Shown piece after piece: positions 13,640-44,150 of a stretch of 64,000 nt of DNA. The notes under the pieces are model-generated. The model was not told the DNA's origin. It saw only the letters and a program-made list of their open reading frames with translations, and did not search any database. The position numbers and the translations under genes were made by a program. The number at the start of each line of letters is the position of its first letter. The first letter of the stretch is position 1. This DNA comes from Eledone cirrhosa (lineage: Eukaryota). The DNA is taken from the NCBI GenBank assembly GCA_964016885.1, contig OZ024742.1:282968001-283032000 (forward strand), in the 5' to 3' direction.

Positions 13640-15700
13640 CTGGCACATACCTGAGCTGCATGCACACACCTGTGCTACATGTATACTGACCCATATATAT
13701 ACCTGAGCTACATACATATACATATACAGACACACACACACACCTGTGCTACATGTATAGTGACCCATATATATACCTGAGCTACATACATATACATATA
13801 CAGACACACACACACACCTGTGCTACATGTATACTGACCCATATATATACCTGAGCTACATACATATACATATACAGACACACACACACACCTGTGCTAC
13901 ATGTATACTGACCCATATATATACCTGAGCTACATACATATACATATACAGACACACACACACACCTGTGCTACATGTATACTGACCCATATATATACCT
14001 GAGCTACATACATATACATATACAGACACACACACACACCTGTGCTACATGTATACTGACCCATATATATACCTGAGCTACATACATATACATATACAGA
14101 CACACACACACACCTGTGCTACATGTATACTGACCCATATATATACCTGAGCTACATACATATACATATACAGACACACACACACACCTGTGCTACATGT
14201 ATACTGACCCATATATATACCTGAGCTACATACATATACATATACAGACACACACACACACCTGTGCTACATGTATACTGACCCATATATATACCTGAGC
14301 TACATACATATACATATACAGACACACACACCTGTGCTACATGTATACTGACACATATATATACCTGAGCTACATACATATACATATACACACACACACA
14401 CCTGTGCTGCATGTATAGTGACCCATATATATACCTGAGCTACATACATATACATATACAGACACACACACCTGTGCTGCATGTATACTGACACATATAT
14501 ATACCTGAGCTACATACATATACATATACAGACACACACACCTGTGCTACATGTATACTGACCCATATATATACCTGAGCTACATACATATACATATACA
14601 GACACACACACACACCTGTGCTACATGTATACTGACCCATATATATACCTGAGCTACATACATATACATATACAGACACACACACACACCTGTGCTACAT
14701 GTATACTGACCCATATATATACCTGAGCTACATACATATACATATACAGACACACACACCTGTGCTACATGTATACTGACACATATATATACCTGAGCTA
14801 CATACATATACATATACACACACACACACCTGTGCTGCATGTATAGTGACCCATATATATACCTGAGCTACATACATATACATATACAGACACACACACC
14901 TGTGCTGCATGTATACTGACACATATATATACCTGAGCTACATACATATACATATACAGACACACACACCTGTGCTACATGTATACTGACACATATATAT
15001 ACCTGAGCTACATACATATACATATACACACACACACACCTGTGCTGCATGTATACTGACACATATATATACCTGAGCTACATACATATACATATACAGA
15101 CACACACACCTGTGCTGCATGTATAGTGACCCATATATATACCTGAGCTACATACATATACATATACACACACACACACCTGTGCTGCATGTATACTGAC
15201 ACATATATATACCTGAGCTACATACATATACATATACACACACACACACCTGTGCTGCATGTATAGTGACCCATATATATACCTGAGCTACATACATATA
15301 CATATACACACACACACACCTGTGCTGCATGTATAGTGACCCATATATATACCTGAGCTACATACATATACATATACAGACACACACACCTGTGCTGCAT
15401 GTATACTGACACATATATATACCTGAGCTACATACATATACATATACACACACACACCTGTGCTGCATGTATAGTGACCCATATATATACCTGAGCTACA
15501 TACATATACATATACACACACACACCTGTGCTGCATGTATACTGATACATATATATACCTGAGCTACATACATATACATATACACACACACCTGTGCTGC
15601 ATGTATACTGACACATATATATACCTGAGCTACATACATATACATATACACACACACCTGTGCTGCATGTATACTGATACATATACCTGAGCTGCATACA
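13640..15700. repeat. Minisatellite with a unit of about 70 bp (66-74 bp)
   Basis: About 28 copies of cctgtgct(a/g)catgtata(c/g)tgac(c/a)catatatatacctgagctacatacatatacatataca(g/c)a(ca)n. It decays into cctgagctgcatac units up to about 16050. Confidence 0.95.
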
Positions 15701-16159
15701 TATACATACACACCTGAGCTGCAGACACACACATGTACACACACTTGAGATACATAAACACACATACGTGAGCTGCATACATACACACACACCCACACAC
15801 ACACACACTTGAGCTACATAAATACATATACACACACATACCTGAGCTGCATACACACACACCCCTGAGCTGCATACACACACATATACACACACACACA
15901 TGTACACACATACACATGAGCTACATAAACACACACACCTGAGCTGCATACAAACACACACACACATACCTGAGTTGCATACATACACATATACGCACAC
16001 ACATACCTGAGCTGCATACACACACATGTACACACACTTGAGCTGCATAAACACACACACACACACACACACACACGAGGAGCATACATTCACACATGCC
16101 ATATAAGGTAAAGTTTAACCCTCCTTCTTTCACTCTCTCCCACTCTCCTTTTGGTAGTA

Positions 16160-24857: not shown

Positions 24858-25013
24858 ATATATATATATATATTCAGGTTTGAGGTTCACCACTGGATAG
24901 AGCTGGTCTATTCCGTATGGTCAATCGCAATGTAATAATATAGAGAGTACTCAACGTAAAGCAGTTCAACCATCTTTGTTTTTGTAGTTGGTGGTGCTAT
25001 TACAGTGTTAAAT

Positions 25014-25323
25014 ATTATAATGAAATGACAGGAGGCTGGATTTGTGTAAATCCTTGAAAGGTTTATTATACTATGATCATTTCAATGACCGGGTTCCGTA
25101 TGAATCCGGTGATATCATCAGGTATTCGAAATATAATACGTGAATGTAATAGATAAAATCCATCGATTTTCAGCCCCATGGATTTTATCTATTACATTCA
25201 CGTATTATATTTCGAATACCTGATGATATCACCGGATTCATACGGAACCCGGTCATTGAAATGATCATAGTATAATAAACCTTTCAAGGATTTACACAAA
25301 TCCAGCCTCCTGTCATTTCATTA

Positions 25324-25327
<4 letters not shown>
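25014..25327. mobile_element. Perfect palindrome (150-bp arms, 14-bp spacer) carrying an HHR in each arm; Penelope-like
   Basis: 25014-25163 is the reverse complement of 25178-25327. A GAGTACTCA tail lies at about 24944, and (TA)n flanks the whole element. Confidence 0.9.
25216..25273 (+). ncRNA. Minimal type I hammerhead ribozyme (mirror copy on - strand in left arm)
   Basis: AUAC-CUGAUGA-UAUC-ACCGGAUUC-AUACG-GAACCCGGU-CAUU-GAAA-UGAUCA-UA-GUAU, then AAUAAA. Predicted cleavage after 25269. Confidence 0.75.
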
Positions 25328-30255: not shown

Positions 30256-31091
30256 CACTTTGTAATCATGAAGCCCCAGGTTCTAACCCACTGCATGGCT
30301 TCTTGGGCAAGTATCTTTACCATAACCTCAAGTTGACCCAAGCCTTATGAATGAAATGTATAGGTAGACAAATAGTGCTGAAGCTCATTAAATATATTCA
30401 AAACTCCAGCCTTGTCACACACCATGTCATACTGATTCAGTTTATGAACTATGTTAAGAGTGCAGCACATGTCTGTGGTATACTCAACCACTTATATGTT
30501 AATTAACGAGTAAGTAATCCACTTGATTGATGAACAATTAAAAAGTCATTATTGAAGCCTACAGAGGGTTCATCACTTACAATTCTCTCCCACCTTTCGG
30601 TAAATTTACTGTTGGAAACTGGTCCTGCTCCACATCTGCCTTCGTTAATAGGAAGTCTTTACTCTTAGAGTTTTATATGCAATTCTGAAAAACATTTATA
30701 TAGCTGTATCACCACCACCATCATCATTTTTGCATCCACTTTCCATACTACCATAGGTTGGATGATATATATATATATATATATATATATATTGAAACAA
30801 AATGAAAACGAAATTTCATTTCTCACTCTTAGTATGGCACTTACTTAAATGTAAGTATGCATGTATACGTACATACATATATGTATACAGACGTACAGTA
30901 GCATGCACATATATATATATATATATACATATATATATACATATGCATACAGGTACACATACATATATGCACGTATCTGTTTAGCGGCGCTAACGTCGCT
31001 TTGTTCGTTTGTAAACAAACTGAACAGCCTGAATTTATGCCATACGGTGTTAAGGCAACCACGTCACCTTTTTGTTCAACACTGACACAGG

Positions 31092-31136
31092 AACGATGTA
31101 CTAGTTTCAAGCTTGTTAGCTATCATCAGCACCGTT
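31092..31136 (-). ncRNA. Minimal type I hammerhead ribozyme (also at 31560-31604 and 32030-32074)
   Basis: Exact reverse complement of 32698-32742. Confidence 0.88.
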
Positions 31137-32616
31137 TACCCATCTGCCAGATAGTTGAACGTTCGAAAGTATATACTTTCCTTATGAAAATTAACGGCTG
31201 AGCAGCCTAATTTGCATATTGAGTGAGTTAAATCGGTCAGGCATACCGAAAACGATAAATTGAAACAAAATGAAAACGAAATTTCATTTCTCACTCTTAG
31301 TATGGCACTTACTTAAATGTAAGTATGCATGTATACGTACATACATATATGTATACAGACGTACAGTAGCATGCACATATATATATATATATATACATAT
31401 ATATATACATATGCATACAGGTACACATACATATATGCACGTATCTGTTTAGCGGCGCTAACGTCGCTTTGTTCGTTTGTAAACAAACTGAACAGCCTGA
31501 ATTTATGCCATACGGTGTTAAGGCAACCACGTCACCTTTTTGTTCAACACTGACACAGGAACGATGTACTAGTTTCAAGCTTGTTAGCTATCATCAGCAC
31601 CGTTTACCCATCTGCCAGATAGTTGAACGTTCGAAAGTATATACTTTCCTTATGAAAATTAACGGCTGAGCAGCCTAATTTGCATATTGAGTGAGTTAAA
31701 TCGGTCAGGCATACCGAAAACGATAAATTGAAACAAAATGAAAACGAAATTTCATTTCTCACTCTTAGTATGGCACTTACTTAAATGTAAGTATGCATGT
31801 ATACGTACATACATATATGTATACAGACGTACAGTAGCATGCACATATATATATATATATATATACATATATATATACATATGCATACAGGTACACATAC
31901 ATATATGCACGTATCTGTTTAGCGGCGCTAACGTCGCTTTGTTCGTTTGTAAACAAACTGAACAGCCTGAATTTATGCCATACGGTGTTAAGGCAACCAC
32001 GTCACCTTTTTGTTCAACACTGACACAGGAACGATGTACTAGTTTCAAGCTTGTTAGCTATCATCAGCACCGTTTACCCATCTGCCAGATAGTTGAACGT
32101 TCGAAAGTATATACTTTCCTTATGAAAATTAACGGCTGAGCAGCCTAATTTGCATATTGAGTGAGTTAAATCGGTCAGGCATACCGAAAACGATAAATTG
32201 AAACAAAATGAAAACGAAATTTCATTTCTCACTCTTAGTATGATAGCTAACAAGCTTGAAACTAGTACATCGTTCCTGTGTCAGTGTTGAACAAAAAGGT
32301 GACGTGGTTGCCTTAACACCGTATGGCATAAATTCAGGCTGTTCAGTTTGTTTACAAACGAACAAAGCGACGTTAGCGCCGCTAAACAGATACGTGCATA
32401 TATGTATGTGTACCTGTATGCATATGTATATATATATGTATATATATATATATATATGTGCATGCTACTGTACGTCTGTATACATATATGTATGTACGTA
32501 TACATGCATACTTACATTTAAGTAAGTGCCATACTAAGAGTGAGAAATGAAATTTCGTTTTCATTTTGTTTCAATTTATCGTTTTCGGTATGCCTGACCG
32601 ATTTAACTCACTCAAT

Positions 32617-32624
32617 ATGCAAAT
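32617..32624 (+). promoter_or_regulatory. Octamer motif ATGCAAAT, one per 468-bp unit
   Basis: Exact match about 80 bp upstream of the HHR core. Function is inferred only. Confidence 0.35.
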
Positions 32625-32697
32625 TAGGCTGCTCAGCCGTTAATTTTCATAAGGAAAGTATATACTTTCGAACGTTCAACTATCTGGCAGATGGGTA

Positions 32698-32742
32698 AAC
32701 GGTGCTGATGATAGCTAACAAGCTTGAAACTAGTACATCGTT
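32698..32742 (+). ncRNA. Minimal type I hammerhead ribozyme (also starting at 33166, 33634, 34102, 34570, 35038, 35506, 35974)
   Basis: AACGGUG-CUGAUGA-U-AGCU-AACA-AGCU-U-GAAA-CUAG-UA-CAUCGUU. Stem I is 7 bp, the core is intact, stem II is 4 bp, loop III is the palindrome CUAG and the triplet is GUA. Predicted cleavage after 32735. Confidence 0.9.
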
Positions 32743-35700
32743 CCTGTGTCAGTGTTGAACAAAAAGGTGACGTGGTTGCCTTAACACCGTATGGCATAAA
32801 TTCAGGCTGTTCAGTTTGTTTACAAACGAACAAAGCGACGTTAGCGCCGCTAAACAGATACGTGCATATATGTATGTGTACCTGTATGCATATGTATATA
32901 TATATGTATATATATATATATATATGTGCATGCTACTGTACGTCTGTATACATATATGTATGTACGTATACATGCATACTTACATTTAAGTAAGTGCCAT
33001 ACTAAGAGTGAGAAATGAAATTTCGTTTTCATTTTGTTTCAATTTATCGTTTTCGGTATGCCTGACCGATTTAACTCACTCAATATGCAAATTAGGCTGC
33101 TCAGCCGTTAATTTTCATAAGGAAAGTATATACTTTCGAACGTTCAACTATCTGGCAGATGGGTAAACGGTGCTGATGATAGCTAACAAGCTTGAAACTA
33201 GTACATCGTTCCTGTGTCAGTGTTGAACAAAAAGGTGACGTGGTTGCCTTAACACCGTATGGCATAAATTCAGGCTGTTCAGTTTGTTTACAAACGAACA
33301 AAGCGACGTTAGCGCCGCTAAACAGATACGTGCATATATGTATGTGTACCTGTATGCATATGTATATATATATGTATATATATATATATATATGTGCATG
33401 CTACTGTACGTCTGTATACATATATGTATGTACGTATACATGCATACTTACATTTAAGTAAGTGCCATACTAAGAGTGAGAAATGAAATTTCGTTTTCAT
33501 TTTGTTTCAATTTATCGTTTTCGGTATGCCTGACCGATTTAACTCACTCAATATGCAAATTAGGCTGCTCAGCCGTTAATTTTCATAAGGAAAGTATATA
33601 CTTTCGAACGTTCAACTATCTGGCAGATGGGTAAACGGTGCTGATGATAGCTAACAAGCTTGAAACTAGTACATCGTTCCTGTGTCAGTGTTGAACAAAA
33701 AGGTGACGTGGTTGCCTTAACACCGTATGGCATAAATTCAGGCTGTTCAGTTTGTTTACAAACGAACAAAGCGACGTTAGCGCCGCTAAACAGATACGTG
33801 CATATATGTATGTGTACCTGTATGCATATGTATATATATATGTATATATATATATATATATGTGCATGCTACTGTACGTCTGTATACATATATGTATGTA
33901 CGTATACATGCATACTTACATTTAAGTAAGTGCCATACTAAGAGTGAGAAATGAAATTTCGTTTTCATTTTGTTTCAATTTATCGTTTTCGGTATGCCTG
34001 ACCGATTTAACTCACTCAATATGCAAATTAGGCTGCTCAGCCGTTAATTTTCATAAGGAAAGTATATACTTTCGAACGTTCAACTATCTGGCAGATGGGT
34101 AAACGGTGCTGATGATAGCTAACAAGCTTGAAACTAGTACATCGTTCCTGTGTCAGTGTTGAACAAAAAGGTGACGTGGTTGCCTTAACACCGTATGGCA
34201 TAAATTCAGGCTGTTCAGTTTGTTTACAAACGAACAAAGCGACGTTAGCGCCGCTAAACAGATACGTGCATATATGTATGTGTACCTGTATGCATATGTA
34301 TATATATATGTATATATATATATATATATGTGCATGCTACTGTACGTCTGTATACATATATGTATGTACGTATACATGCATACTTACATTTAAGTAAGTG
34401 CCATACTAAGAGTGAGAAATGAAATTTCGTTTTCATTTTGTTTCAATTTATCGTTTTCGGTATGCCTGACCGATTTAACTCACTCAATATGCAAATTAGG
34501 CTGCTCAGCCGTTAATTTTCATAAGGAAAGTATATACTTTCGAACGTTCAACTATCTGGCAGATGGGTAAACGGTGCTGATGATAGCTAACAAGCTTGAA
34601 ACTAGTACATCGTTCCTGTGTCAGTGTTGAACAAAAAGGTGACGTGGTTGCCTTAACACCGTATGGCATAAATTCAGGCTGTTCAGTTTGTTTACAAACG
34701 AACAAAGCGACGTTAGCGCCGCTAAACAGATACGTGCATATATGTATGTGTACCTGTATGCATATGTATATATATATGTATATATATATATATATATGTG
34801 CATGCTACTGTACGTCTGTATACATATATGTATGTACGTATACATGCATACTTACATTTAAGTAAGTGCCATACTAAGAGTGAGAAATGAAATTTCGTTT
34901 TCATTTTGTTTCAATTTATCGTTTTCGGTATGCCTGACCGATTTAACTCACTCAATATGCAAATTAGGCTGCTCAGCCGTTAATTTTCATAAGGAAAGTA
35001 TATACTTTCGAACGTTCAACTATCTGGCAGATGGGTAAACGGTGCTGATGATAGCTAACAAGCTTGAAACTAGTACATCGTTCCTGTGTCAGTGTTGAAC
35101 AAAAAGGTGACGTGGTTGCCTTAACACCGTATGGCATAAATTCAGGCTGTTCAGTTTGTTTACAAACGAACAAAGCGACGTTAGCGCCGCTAAACAGATA
35201 CGTGCATATATGTATGTGTACCTGTATGCATATGTATATATATATGTATATATATATATATATATGTGCATGCTACTGTACGTCTGTATACATATATGTA
35301 TGTACGTATACATGCATACTTACATTTAAGTAAGTGCCATACTAAGAGTGAGAAATGAAATTTCGTTTTCATTTTGTTTCAATTTATCGTTTTCGGTATG
35401 CCTGACCGATTTAACTCACTCAATATGCAAATTAGGCTGCTCAGCCGTTAATTTTCATAAGGAAAGTATATACTTTCGAACGTTCAACTATCTGGCAGAT
35501 GGGTAAACGGTGCTGATGATAGCTAACAAGCTTGAAACTAGTACATCGTTCCTGTGTCAGTGTTGAACAAAAAGGTGACGTGGTTGCCTTAACACCGTAT
35601 GGCATAAATTCAGGCTGTTCAGTTTGTTTACAAACGAACAAAGCGACGTTAGCGCCGCTAAACAGATACGTGCATATATGTATGTGTACCTGTATGCATA

Positions 35701-36259
35701 TGTATATATATATGTATATATATATATATATATGTGCATGCTACTGTACGTCTGTATACATATATGTACGTACGTATACATGCATACTTACATTTAAGTA
35801 AGTGCCATACTAAGAGTGAGAAATGAAATTTCGTTTTCATTTTGTTTCAATTTATCGTTTTCGGTATGCCTGACCGATTTAACTCACTCAATATGCAAAT
35901 TAGGCTGCTCAGCCGTTAATTTTCATAAGGAAAGTATATACTTTCGAACGTTCAACTATCTGGCAGATGGGTAAACGGTGCTGATGATAGCTAACAAGCT
36001 TGAAACTAGTACATCGTTCCTGTGTCAGTGTTGAACAAAAAGGTGACGTGGTTGCCTTAACACCGTATGGCATAAATTCAGGCTGTTCAGTTTGTTTACA
36101 AACGAACAAAGCGACGTTAGCGCCGCTAAACAGATACGTGCATATATGTATGTGTACCTGTATGCATATGTATATATATATGTATATATATATATATATA
36201 TGTGCATGCTACTGTACGTCTGTATACATATATGTATGTACGTATACATGCATACTTAC

Positions 36260-36297
<38 letters not shown>

Positions 36298-37669
36298 AAA
36301 ACAGATGTTAAATGATGTATATATGACTGATATACATAAACACACACATATATATGGCTGATATACATATATATATATACACACACACACATATACATAT
36401 ATATATATATATATACACACATACACACACATATATGGAAAACGGATGTTAAATGATGCTGATATATATCTATATCTGTGTGTGTGGTTCTTTGTTTTTT
36501 GTTTTTTTTCTTATAATTCTTTGTTTCTTGGGTTTTATTTTTTAGCTTTATCTGCTGCCAAATTATTTTCATCCTTGTTCACTCATTCGTGTAATTTATG
36601 AAATGTCTTTGTATATCACCATATCACTGTATGATGTTATGCTTCACTGATTTGATATGTTAGATATATGACAAGTTGATAATATAGCTGTATCACAAAT
36701 ATAAACATTTTATATCCAGAGGAGTGAGGCAGGGAGAAATGTAAATGTTTTAGTTTTAAAATAGCCAAATGACCCTGGAACCCAACCTAGAACTCATCCA
36801 AAGAGGAAACCTTCAGCATGTCTATTGATTGGTGTTGATTGCGATGGGGTGGAAGAAGGGTGGGGGTGTAAGGAAAGATCAACAGGAGTTTCAGAAGTTT
36901 CTAGTTTGGTAACCTATTGCTGAACTGGTGCTACCATATGTCAAAATGATATCTAGTTGATAAACTTATACTACTCTATATATATGTGTAGGCATGACTG
37001 TGTGGCAAAGGAGTTCATTACCCACTGTGTGGCACCTAAGGCAAGTGTTCTCTACTATAGCCTTGAGTTGAACAATGCCTTACATGTGAAATTTGGCTGA
37101 CAGGAACTGGTTTGGGCTTCAGTCACACTGTATGGTATTTTGGGGCATGTGTCTTTGTTTATTATTTTAACCTTTAGCTGACCAATGCCTTATGAGGGAA
37201 ATTTGATAGATGGAAGCTGTGCAGAATCCCATTGTGTTTGTGTTTATATGTATGTATATCATCATCATCATCATTATCATCATCATTTAATGTCCAATTG
37301 TTCACGCTACCATGGATTAGACAACTTGTTCCATTTGTTACAAGGCAAGTCAGATGACTGTCTTTCTCATACAGAACTGATTCTGGTTTGGTTTCTATGG
37401 CTGGATGCCATCAGTGTGGACTGGGTTTTTTTATCATGGCACCAAAACGACCTCATTATAGTATGGGCTGGGTGCTTTTTGTTGTGACACCAACATGACC
37501 ACTTTACAGTGTGGACTGGCCAATTTTTTTTTTTGCATCATCCACAGAACACTTTACAGTGTCACAGAGCGAATGCAAGCCAACTATGACCGGTGCCAGC
37601 TACAGGTCTTTCTGAACAAAGAAACAAAATGGAAAATGTGTGTGTGCATATATATCTATTTATATATAT

Positions 37670-38017
37670 ATACTATAAGAATAAAGGAACAAAGAGTCAG
37701 TGTTGCATCAAGGCATATTTAATAACAGATTACATATGTTTCATTGTCAATCAGCTCGAGGAACGATCTATTATTGATTGAACCTGACTCTGGAATCGAA
37801 AGATCCTCAGATATGCCTTAGTATGTAAGCTTGTCTCCGATTCTGTCATACCGAGCTTACATACCGAAGCATATCTGAGGATCTTTCGATTCCAGAGTCA
37901 GGTTCAATCAATAATAGATCGTTCCTCGAGCTGATCGACAGTGAAACATATGTAATATGTTATTAAATATATGCTATGATGCAACACTGACTCTTTGTTC
38001 CTTTATTCTTATAGTAT
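37670..38017. mobile_element. Palindrome (arms of about 163 bp, 22-bp spacer) carrying HHRs; Penelope-like
   Basis: 37670-37831 matches the reverse complement of 37854-38017 with a few mismatches. Tail gcatcgagcgctc at about 38037-38049; TA-rich flanks. Confidence 0.9.
37869..37960 (+). ncRNA. Type I hammerhead with a stem II insertion of about 60 nt
   Basis: GCAUAU-CUGAGGA-UCUU-UCGAU...AUCGA-CAGU-GAAA-CAUAUG-UA-AUAUGU, then AUUAAA. Predicted cleavage after 37954. Confidence 0.75.
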
Positions 38018-38144
38018 TATACTCTTATCTGCGCAAGCATCGAGCGCTCACCCGGCATACCACTTATGGACACAATTTTCTTGCACCTATACACCTATAT
38101 ATATATATATATATTTATTAAAATACGAGATTAAAGTTTAAGCT

Positions 38145-39830: not shown

Positions 39831-40021
39831 TAGCAGTTTTTACATGGGAGCAGTCTCTTATAAAATTTATTAATTATATATAGTTATATATATGTGTATT
39901 TATATATATATATATATATATATACATTTTGAGTTTATGTTGGTTGTATACCAACACCTCAGTATGCAGGCTGGAGCACTCGACGAAGTGCGCAGGTTGG
40001 TTTGGTTACTCCGGAGTAGTG

Positions 40022-40447
40022 TAAAATAAAGTTAAATAAAAGTCAAATGATTAAAATTTAGCTTCGTTTATTACTGCTATATATATTTCAGTGACAGCCA
40101 TCTTTGGCTGTGACCTCTTCAGGCAGTTTGAATTAGTATGGTATAGACAAGTACATATGTTGTTTAGGTGTATGATATTGTCAATACTCTGATATGCCCA
40201 GTTCCTTGTTGGGTTGTTAATTCACTGGGGAACTGGTTCCCCAGTGAATTAACAACCCAACAAGGAACTGGGCATATCAGAGTATTGACAATATCATACA
40301 CCTAAACAACATATGTACTTGTCTATACCATACTAATTCAAACTGCCTGAAGAGGTCACAGCCAAAGATGGCTGTCACTGAAATATATATAGCAGTAATA
40401 AACGAAGCTAAATTTTAATCATTTGACTTTTATTTAACTTTATTTTA
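40022..40447. mobile_element. Perfect palindrome (212-bp arms, 2-bp spacer) carrying HHRs; Penelope-like
   Basis: 40022-40233 is the reverse complement of 40236-40447. Tail ggagcactcgacgaag at about 39973; (TA)n on both sides. Confidence 0.92.
40342..40396 (+). ncRNA. Minimal type I hammerhead ribozyme (mirror copy on - strand in left arm)
   Basis: ACUGC-CUGAAGA-GGUC-ACAGCCA-AAGA-UGGCUGU-CACU-GAAA-UAUAUA-UA-GCAGU, then AAUAAA. Predicted cleavage after 40391. Confidence 0.82.
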
Positions 40448-42994: not shown

Positions 42995-43074
42995 AGCAAG
43001 AAAGTAAGTGTTGGTAAAATCCAGTGCTTCAGTATGCGTATAGGGAGCACTCAACGAAGATATAAGTTCCGGAG

Positions 43075-43394
43075 AGTGACGAAACATAAGTCAATTGCAT
43101 GAACTCATAATCCTTTATTTACTGCTATATATATTTTGATGATAGCCATTGAATGGCTATGACCTCATCAGGCAGTTAGTCAGTTCTTAGATATGCCAGC
43201 TCTGTGTTTATAGTGTTGATGGTATCAGGGATATGCCCCAAGGCTCTGATACCATCAACACTATAAACACAGAGCTGGCATATCTAAGAATTGACTAACT
43301 GCCTGATGAAGTCATAGCCATTCAATGGTTATCATCAAAATATATATAGCAGTAAATAAAGGATTATGAGTTCATGCAATTGACATATGTTTCG

Positions 43395-43399
<5 letters not shown>
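43075..43399. mobile_element. Palindrome (154-bp arms, 17-bp spacer) with mutated HHR; relative of 40022-40447
   Basis: ACUGC-CUGAUGA-AGUC-stem-CAUC-AAAA-UAUAUA-UA-GCAGU at 43298-43353, with GAAA changed to AAAA in both arms. Tail gggagcactcaacgaag at about 43043. Confidence 0.88.
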
Positions 43400-43462: not shown

Positions 43463-44075
43463 AAAAAACATGAGAAGAAAGAATACTGCGTGGTTGCACA
43501 TGGGTTACATATGATAAAAATAGTCCTTCATCAGTGATTTTCCAACCTTCATTGGTATTTCATCGCTTTAAAAATCATATACCTCCAGTTGCTGCAAGCA
43601 GTAGCTAAATAAAGCTATTGGGACAAGTAAATCGCGTAAAGCGAGACAAGTAAACAAACATAGAAGGATAGCAACACAAAGATAGGAACAAACAAGCACA
43701 TGGGAGTCCGATCAGCTTTAGCTGTGTGGATTTCATGGGCAAGAGAATACAGACCGTGCGACGCGAGTGAGATGTGAGCAAGAAAAGACCCCACTACAGG
43801 CCAAACGGGAGGAAGTGAGAAGAGGAGAAGCAGAGAGTGAATGAGTGGAAGTGCGAGGAAGAGGCCAGTCGAGAGAAAGTGTAACTGACAGAGGGGGCGA
43901 AAGAAGGTGAGAGAAACAGAGAGAGGGGGGAAGCAGTAAGAGAGAAACAGACAAATCCAGCTGGGGAAAATATATATAAAAAACATAAGAATGAATACTG
44001 CGTGGTTGCACATTGGTTACATATGATAAAAATAGTCCTTCATCAGTGATTTTCTAACCTTCATTGGTATTTCAT

Positions 44076-44077
<2 letters not shown>
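43463..44077. mobile_element. Unit of about 515 bp with terminal direct repeats of about 100 bp
   Basis: gaatactgcgtggttgcaca...ttggtatttcatc occurs at 43481-43564 and 43993-44076. The element ends in (TA)n. Confidence 0.65.

Positions 44078-44150
<73 letters not shown>

What the first reader, a model, noticed from the sequence alone, without database searches (positions are those of the whole stretch)
32225..32532. Array inversion junction has a 3-bp ATG microhomology inside the CUGAUGA core
Seen: the left arm ends ...CTCTTAGT-ATG (normally followed by GCAC) and the right arm begins ATG-ATAGCTAAC (normally preceded by GGTGCTG). The shared ATG is at 32240-32242, so the first plus-strand HHR is 5'-truncated. 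The join is not a symmetric fold-back: mirror symmetry resumes at 32530, leaving about 287 bp unpaired. The geometry (HHR on - at left, HHR on + at right, both ends in (TA)n) matches the small palindromes in this window. Inferred: the insertion was primed from both target strands, or template-switched, and was then joined by microhomology, as in inverted Penelope-like insertions.
Basis: partly seen in the sequence, partly recalled or inferred. Interest (0 to 1): 0.75.

Follow-up and report, generated by a model that had tools for sequence, protein, structure and literature searches.

The report
Retrozyme array written from both ends
The three shared bases at this array's turn-around point are an ordinary, randomly placed join, but about a hundred sister insertions show that the two back-to-back halves nearly always end at two different fixed points of the repeat, which likely means that a Penelope-type transposon enzyme copied one small ribozyme RNA from both sides of a DNA cut.

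Summary
The junction is as described: a shared ATG at 32240-32242, a 5'-truncated first hammerhead and 287 unpaired bases. Its place in CUGAUGA is chance: 2 of 202 inner arm ends in sister insertions fall there (3.0 expected), and 1-3 bp overlaps are the family norm.

The signal is at the outer ends. This 468-bp hammerhead repeat (non-LTR retrozyme) has about 2,000 insertions in (TA)n. Of 91 two-armed insertions anchored on the long end (unit base ~311), 86 close at base ~252 and 1 at ~311. That 59-nt one-sided tail is the Penelope-like-element signature. Both arms share a locus-private monomer (20 of 20). The long-end copy often stops at the short-end site on its first pass (14 of 41) but not later (3 of 71). 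Fold-back fails: in 10 of 82 loci neither arm contains the other.

Best reading: one RNA, probably a circle, primed from both target strands at two fixed sites, then joined by microhomology. No partner enzyme was identified and no read spanning this junction was seen. The scan noted this footprint before in other retrozyme families of this genome; the collision and fold-back tests were run here.

The parts
30765..30792 (.). (TA)n target run, left side
30787..32242 (-). Left arm, 3.1 units of the 468-bp repeat. Outer end at unit base 307-311 (tailed end), inner end at unit base 262. Unit bases are counted from 32737, the second base after the predicted cut.
30787..30845 (-). 59-nt tail (unit 253-311), present at this outer end only
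32030..32074 (-). Type I hammerhead motif of the left arm nearest the junction (further cores at 31597 and 31129)
   Evidence: pairing read from the sequence
32240..32242 (.). ATG shared by both arms (3-bp microhomology)
32240..32274 (+). 5'-truncated first hammerhead, begins at A6
32243..32529 (+). 287 bp without mirror partner: the offset between the two inner ends
32240..36264 (+). Right arm, 8.6 units; 8 full monomers identical but for one base (35769); outer end at unit base 252 (untailed end)
32509..32528 (+). Predicted hairpin 1 (unit 241-260); the untailed end site (249-252) lies in its loop; repeated in every unit
   Evidence: fold; ends
32538..32572 (+). Predicted hairpin 2 (unit 270-304); the tailed end site (307-311) lies just 3' of it
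32698..32742 (+). First intact type I hammerhead motif: 7-bp stem I, CUGAUGA at 32705, 4-bp stem II with U-U at 10.1/11.1, GAAA, palindromic 2-bp stem III, predicted cut between 32735 and 32736
   Evidence: 410 of 463 motif matches in the fetched loci are identical
36263..36296 (.). (TA)n target run, right side
24874..25327 (.). Small head-to-head element of another family, 140-nt tail at the left end only
37665..38097 (.). Small head-to-head element, 77-nt tail at the right end only
39926..40447 (.). Small head-to-head element, 96-nt tail at the left end only
42997..43399 (.). Small head-to-head element, 88-nt tail at the left end only; dispersed family (624 candidates, 40 scored)

Best explanation
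This is a young insertion of a 468-bp hammerhead-bearing repeat (a non-LTR retrozyme) in a (TA)n run, likely made by a Penelope-like RT-endonuclease that would prime both cut DNA strands on one RNA at two fixed sites 59 nt apart and join the two copies by a chance 3-base overlap. Steps: (1) shown: head-to-head arms, (TA)n at both ends, one end at unit ~311 and the other at ~252. (2) Inferred: the enzyme nicks both strands of (TA)n; one 3' end starts cDNA after hairpin 2 (311), the other in the loop of hairpin 1 (252). (3) Inferred from the first-pass pile-up: both start on the same RNA, so the 311 copy often runs into the second complex after 50-65 nt. (4) Inferred: otherwise both copies go round a monomer circle (or along a uniform multimer), which gives multi-unit arms with one private sequence. 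(5) Overlap shown, route inferred: the two cDNA 3' ends pair by 1-5 bases wherever they stopped and prime each other's second strand. Here that was ATG/CAT.
For: Complement rule: of 91 two-armed loci anchored on the tailed end, 82 close at 242-256 plus (TA)n by the caller and 4 more by motif check, 1 closes with a second tail, and 4 are unresolved. Among 179 listed pattern places, divergent pairs within 10 kb were 22 mixed, 1 tail/tail and 0 short/short; the tail/tail pair, L108, proved to be two insertions. Genome-wide: 2325 short-end and 1695 long-end exact patterns, against 8 and 0 for the reversed controls. One template: a locus's own right arm is the nearest or joint nearest match to its left arm in 20 of 20 loci; identical in 12 of 20 against 2% of 380 cross pairs. 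Collision: tailed arms shorter than one unit stop at 243-263 in 14 of 41, longer arms in 3 of 71 (Fisher p=4e-5); 6 of the 14 come from the batch fetched after the idea was noted. Fold-back excluded: in 10 of 82 loci neither arm contains the other, in 6 they share 10 nt or less; the short-end arm is the longer by >60 in 33 loci, the tailed arm in 41. Overlap of 1 base or more in 52 of 58 flush joins. A coding RT + GIY-YIG element has the same layout with a 61-nt tail (L141). In vitro a Penelope-like protein cuts and extends both strands, prefers AT-rich DNA, and starts at two internal sites that bound the tail (PMC11167929).
Against: No autonomous partner with this repeat as its terminal repeat was found in about 180 fetched records. 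The in vitro paper saw no difference in start site between the strands, so it does not predict the one-of-each rule. Short-end arms do not pile up at 311 after one turn (0 of 91 in 300-320), which a two-complex collision on a circle might give. Two loci pair a tailed retrozyme arm with an untailed arm of a different family (L051, and L033 after an intervening palindrome), which fits two RNAs or later recombination. Shared arm sequence could also come from arm-to-arm gene conversion. 26 of 117 loci have no second arm called (12 run straight into (TA)n), and 19 of 77 near-flush joins carry inserted or mismatched bases. The four small palindromes of the window have centres under about 30 bp unpaired, as fold-back would give. 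All 117 loci are from one contig of one assembly, and the windows tested were partly chosen after seeing data. Cleavage, circles and expression are untested.
Confidence: 0.72

Rival explanations
1. Dual priming: each target strand is primed on its own RNA molecule by an asymmetric enzyme dimer (one subunit uses site 311, the other 252), and the cDNAs are joined by microhomology.
For: Explains the complement rule equally well if the dimer is asymmetric. Cross-family arm pairs at L051 and L033 follow the tail/no-tail rule. Proposed for L1 (PMC2837659, passages).
Against: Does not predict the first-pass stop at 243-263 with none in later passes, nor arms sharing a private monomer in 20 of 20 loci, unless one source RNA dominates each cell.
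Confidence: 0.13
2. Fold-back self-priming: one cDNA turns back on itself at a short match (ATG/CAT), copies itself, and the endonuclease cuts the product at a fixed site to give the second end.
For: This locus alone fits it geometrically if the right arm came first. Self-priming was proposed for Penelope inverted junctions (PMC3846280, passages) and endonuclease resolution for the tail (PMC8557442, passages). The small window palindromes have near-symmetric centres.
Against: In 10 of 82 loci neither arm contains the other; 17 exclude the tail-first direction only and 29 the other direction only. The loop size is uniform over the unit (p=0.52).
Confidence: 0.06
3. Post-insertion change: arrays began short and were lengthened, homogenised or inverted later by slippage, unequal crossing-over or gene conversion, so arm length and identity say little about the template.
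For: Tandem arrays do this. Older, heterogeneous long arrays of the family exist (L035-L038, 82-95% identity). The window's tailed arm stops at 262, where first-pass stops lie, though it is 3 units long.
Against: Cannot make fixed complementary outer ends in unrelated flanks. Growth by whole units would spread the 243-263 stop into long arms, and long arms show no excess there (3 of 71, 3.2 expected).
Confidence: 0.06
4. Assembly or chimeric-read artefact at this junction.
For: No contig of runs X1 or X2 and no clean read set of X21 or X22 spans 32241.
Against: The two flanks are different unique sequences and the ends are the family's two canonical sites; a fold-back read would mirror its flank. 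The same layout holds at 86 loci of the sample. The contigs drop rare branches of high-copy repeats. The RAD reads pile up at AATT and TTAA sites, and AATT sites at 32218 and 32331 enclose the junction in a 113-bp piece without the likely second site.
Confidence: 0.03

Closest known systems
Metazoan non-LTR retrozymes (PMC7229834, passages; bioRxiv 10.64898/2026.07.22.740005, parts 1-3 of 5 read)
   Same: Non-coding tandem unit of a few hundred bases with one type I hammerhead per unit, low G+C, dispersed multimers; a link to Penelope-like elements is proposed there.
   Different: 'Inverted' does not occur in PMC7229834. The preprint argues from co-occurrence and terminal-repeat phylogeny, calls the mechanism open, and suggests local tandem growth after insertion. 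Here the insertions themselves carry fixed ends, head-to-head arms and a one-sided tail.
Endonuclease-bearing Penelope-like elements: inverted pLTR plus tail (PMC8557442 and PMC3846280, passages; PMC11167929, parts 1-2 of 4 read)
   Same: Inverted 5'-truncated copy, tail at one end only, (TA)n or AT-rich targets, hammerhead in the repeat, two internal start sites bounding the tail.
   Different: No ORF. The tail is 59 nt rather than 30-40. Both arms can be many units long. In the passages read, the tail is called optional or often one-sided; a one-of-each rule and a stop at the second site are not described.
L1 twin priming (PMC2837659 and bioRxiv 10.1101/2024.08.27.596794, passages)
   Same: Both target ends prime on one RNA; the cDNA ends join by microcomplementarity; the first copy often stops near the second primer.
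   Different: In L1 the first site is the poly(A) tail and the second is a chance match. Here both sites are fixed, internal and next to predicted hairpins, there is no poly(A), the layout is the rule and not a variant, and both copies run over the same unit repeatedly.

Membership tests
Non-LTR retrozyme | Tandem non-coding unit with a type I hammerhead motif in consecutive units | tested here: met
   468-bp unit with 11 intact cores in the window; pairing. The preprint's energy cut-off was not applied; the plain fold of 61 nt did not give the ribozyme fold (z -1.2).
Non-LTR retrozyme | Short stem III with palindromic loop (dimer-type hammerhead) | tested here: met
   2-bp stem with a palindromic hexamer; described for metazoan type I motifs in PMC4209133 (passages).
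Non-LTR retrozyme | Canonical G10.1-C11.1 pair; match to a curated hammerhead model | tested here: not met
   U-U at that place; no Rfam match at gathering score in the window.
Non-LTR retrozyme | Self-cleavage and circular monomer RNA | not testable with these tools
   Indirect only: 24 of 202 inner ends lie in the 30 bases after the predicted cut (12.9 expected, p=0.003 uncorrected) against 9 in the 30 before it.
Non-LTR retrozyme | Dispersed, mobile copies | tested here: met
   1695 and 2325 end patterns genome-wide; 99-100% identical arrays on other contigs.
Penelope-like insertion footprint | Inverted 5'-truncated copy next to the direct copy | tested here: met
   91 of 117 loci.
Penelope-like insertion footprint | Tail extension at one end only | tested here: met
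   86 of 91 mixed ends, 1 double tail, 4 unresolved; 59 nt, longer than the 30-40 in the papers.
Penelope-like insertion footprint | AT-rich or (TA)n target | tested here: met
   The anchor required (TA)n on one side by design; the far end also lies in (TA)n in 82 of 91.
Penelope-like insertion footprint | Target-site duplication | tested here: inconclusive
   Hidden in (TA)n at both ends; no empty allele was seen.
Autonomous Penelope-like element | ORF with RT and GIY-YIG endonuclease | tested here: not met
   No hit of four Penelope-like proteins anywhere in the window; such ORFs occur elsewhere in the genome.
Autonomous Penelope-like element | Repeat is the terminal repeat of a coding element | tested here: inconclusive
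   No such linkage in about 180 fetched records, which is a small part of the genome.
L1-type twin priming product | Poly(A) at one end and a variable internal second site | tested here: not met
   No poly(A); the second site is fixed at 242-256 in 82 loci. It works like twin priming but is not an L1 product.
L1-type twin priming product | Microhomology at the internal junction | tested here: met
   52 of 58 flush joins.

The most novel reading that the evidence does not exclude
Penelope-like integration is by rule a programmed twin priming: a dimeric RT-endonuclease binds one RNA at two hairpin-marked sites, gives one site to each target strand, and on a ribozyme-made circle runs two rolling-circle reverse transcriptions at once. 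The long-unexplained inverted repeat and one-sided tail of Penelope-like elements would both be direct products of that geometry, and animal retrozymes would need only the two hairpins to be moved.
Probability: 0.5. Interest if true: 0.75.

Novelty: new variant of a known kind. Interest (0 to 1): 0.52.

Why it matters
How Penelope-like elements make their inverted copies and tails is called open in PMC8557442, and how animal retrozymes move is called open in the 2026 preprint. It names an 80-nt RNA region (unit 241-311) and two coordinates to test in the existing in vitro assay.

Tried and rejected
Hotspot at CUGAUGA: rejected (2 of 202 inner ends, 3.0 expected; 9 of 182 in the hammerhead stretch 430-468, 15.2 expected). 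An early impression of clustering came from four ends at 437-442 plus the window's own.

Special meaning of 287 bp: rejected.

Rfam: no match.

Read support: laid four runs on the junction. None spans it cleanly, which is uninformative for the reasons given under the artefact rival. Large stacks of loose read ends at 32130, 32147, 32199 and 32331 looked like further element ends, but they coincide with AATT and TTAA sites and were rejected as library artefacts. A read test of the right flank in other individuals was not obtained, so polymorphism and the empty allele stay open. No RNA holder was listed.

Partner search: GIY-YIG search (10,596 candidates, 150 scored) and 10 long-ORF loci. No coding element carried this repeat as its terminal repeat. 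The coding family of L136/L141/L145 has a 61-nt tail that shares a 12-base word with this tail (p about 0.004 by shuffle, one of 21 pairs, AT-rich), too weak to name it as partner.

Rows left out: 5 of 117 loci from the stop test (gap, run off the stretch, or internal deletion); 14 of 91 from the overlap count (long insertions or joins inside the TA-rich part); L040, L044 and L046 from the arm comparison.

Literature searches gave no paper that describes inverted retrozyme insertions or fixed-site twin priming; the five-term search since 2022 gave only PMC11167929. Subscription papers and bioRxiv supplements were not seen, and no supplement of any paper was opened. The earlier-findings search by sequence gave nothing.

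Full report
Observation. The window holds a 468-bp tandem repeat in two arms: 3.1 units on the minus strand (30787-32242) and 8.6 units on the plus strand (32240-36264). The eight full plus-strand units are identical but for one base, and the left arm differs by one 2-bp TA slip. The arms share ATG at 32240-32242. Mirror symmetry begins at 32242/32530, so 287 bp have no partner. Both outer ends lie in (TA)n, with different unique flanks beyond.

The unit. Each unit carries a type I hammerhead motif: a 7-bp stem I, CUGAUGA, a 4-bp stem II, GAAA, a 2-bp palindromic stem III and a GUA cut triplet (read from the sequence). PMC4209133 (passages) describes this short palindromic stem III as the dimer-active metazoan form. 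The motif has U-U where G10.1-C11.1 is usual, Rfam gave no match, and the free fold of 61 nt did not adopt the ribozyme shape, so activity is predicted only. The motif is invariant in 410 of 463 matches in the fetched loci. The whole monomer folds far better than shuffles (z -8.4), largely through its TA-rich hairpin. No Penelope-like coding sequence lies in the window. Unit bases below are counted from 32737.

The family. A DNA search found near-identical arrays on other contigs. In them one arm ended at unit base ~311 and the other at ~252. Exact end patterns occur 2325 times (short end plus TA run) and 1695 times (long end), against 8 and 0 for reversed controls. I fetched 117 loci anchored on the long end, all from contig C1: 53 of the 54 young-variant places listed (the other was already held as L033) and all 64 further places listed, out of 830 exact young long ends genome-wide. 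A k-mer caller mapped both arms.

The junction is ordinary. Of 91 two-armed loci, 77 have near-flush joins: 19 carry inserted or mismatched bases, and 58 overlap by 0, 1, 2, 3, 4, 5 and 6 bases in 6, 18, 18, 9, 2, 4 and 1 cases. Random blunt joins would show zero overlap in 53%. Three bases is therefore typical, and the 3-base words differ between loci. Only 2 of 202 inner ends fall in CUGAUGA, with 3.0 expected. The offset between the two inner ends, 287 unpaired bases here, is uniform over the unit. There is a modest excess of inner ends just after the predicted cut (24 of 202 against 12.9; 9 on the other side). It hints that some templates were cleaved RNA, but the test is uncorrected.

The outer ends are the signal. 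Opposite a long end stands a short end in 82 of 91 loci by the caller and in 4 more by motif check. One locus has two long ends (L088), and four are unresolved. With independent choice of site at the genomic ratio, 1 or fewer of 87 has p about 1e-19. Because the sample was anchored on the long end, I also paired the listed pattern places: 22 mixed, 1 long/long and 0 short/short within 10 kb. The short site lies in the loop of one predicted hairpin and the long site just after a second. The 59 nt between them is a one-sided tail. Four unrelated small palindromes in the window (tails of 140, 77, 96 and 88 nt), an abundant tiny family (80 nt) and a coding RT + GIY-YIG element (L141, 61 nt) show the same layout. 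PMC8557442 and PMC3846280 (passages) describe the inverted copy and one-sided tail as Penelope-like hallmarks. PMC11167929 (parts 1-2 of 4) shows that the protein extends both strands and that two internal start sites bound the tail.

Telling the models apart. Fold-back requires one arm to be contained in the other. In 10 of 82 loci neither is, and in 6 the arms share 10 nt or less; 17 more exclude the tail-first direction and 29 the other. Both arms come from one sequence variant: in 20 of 20 loci with a full unit in each arm, the locus's own other arm is the nearest or joint nearest match, and it is identical in 12 of 20 against 2% of cross pairs. Gene conversion could add to this. Tailed arms shorter than one unit stop at 243-263 in 14 of 41 cases, longer arms in 3 of 71. 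A pause caused by the hairpin alone should recur on every pass; a second complex sitting at the short site blocks only the first. This matches L1 twin priming as described in PMC2837659 and bioRxiv 10.1101/2024.08.27.596794 (passages), except that both sites are fixed.

Against. Short-end arms show no stop at 311 after one turn (0 of 91). Two loci pair a tailed arm with an untailed arm of another family. 26 of 117 loci lack a called second arm. The small palindromes have nearly symmetric centres, which fold-back or run-off at a common RNA 5' end would both give. No partner was found. No read spans this junction in the four runs laid, though neither data type is suited to it. Circle versus uniform linear multimer is not decided.

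Known and new. The element is a new family of animal non-LTR retrozymes (PMC7229834, passages; bioRxiv 10.64898/2026.07.22.740005, parts 1-3 of 5). The footprint is known for Penelope-like elements. Five literature searches gave no description of it in retrozymes, nor of a one-of-each rule. Earlier notes of this scan report the same footprint and reading for 310-, 316- and 318-base families in this genome. I had reached the reading before that call and do not count those notes as evidence. The first-pass collision, the containment test and the absence of a core hotspot were measured here.

Verdict. Observation confirmed. The headline, ATG inside the core, is chance. The two-strand priming idea is supported and sharpened to fixed-site twin priming on one RNA (0.72). 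Novelty: new variant of a known kind. Interest 0.52.

Noticed in passing
L051:1785-1827; L033 beyond the array: A tailed retrozyme arm is closed by the untailed arm of a different tiny family, ending in (TA)n. Possible two-RNA insertions, or later recombination.
   Followed up: partly
L141:1849-7079: Coding Penelope-like element (RT + GIY-YIG) folded head to head inside its ORF, with a 61-nt tail at one end; its tail shares a 12-base word with the retrozyme tail. Best, but weak, partner candidate.
   Followed up: partly
L104, next to the array: An untailed retrozyme arm faces the tailed 3' fragment of the L141-type coding family across a 28-bp TA run.
   Followed up: no
L173, after the array: The retrozyme arm is fused without TA to a frameshifted RT plus C-terminal nuclease-like frame of another Penelope-like type.
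   Followed up: partly
L088: The only tail/tail insertion; its join lies in hairpin 1 and its second tail has the sequence of an older subfamily.
   Followed up: no
L083, junction: About 70 bp of short tandem copies of a 12-base unit segment at the join, like slippage during joining.
   Followed up: no
window 25014-25327, 37665-38021, 40022-40447, 43075-43399: Small palindromes with near-symmetric centres, unlike the uniform offsets of the retrozyme; the tails of three or four of them are related to each other.
   Followed up: partly
window 32530 (unit 262): The window's tailed arm stops at the base of hairpin 1, where first-pass stops pile up, although it is three units long; about 1 in 22 by chance.
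   Followed up: partly
L035-L038: Older, heterogeneous arrays of the same family over 10 kb long (82-95% identity), probably grown by DNA-level amplification.
   Followed up: no
window 43475-43560 and 43985-44080: A direct repeat of about 90 bp with CTGATGA on the minus strand (43534, 44046) beside TA runs; probably fragments of a further family.
   Followed up: no
window 13663-15712: 70-bp minisatellite, 29 copies, 96% matches.
   Followed up: no
L139:3290-3340 and L144:3760-3805 (minus strand): A coding Penelope-like family with a compact hammerhead motif and palindromic stem III about 385 nt after its stop codon.
   Followed up: no
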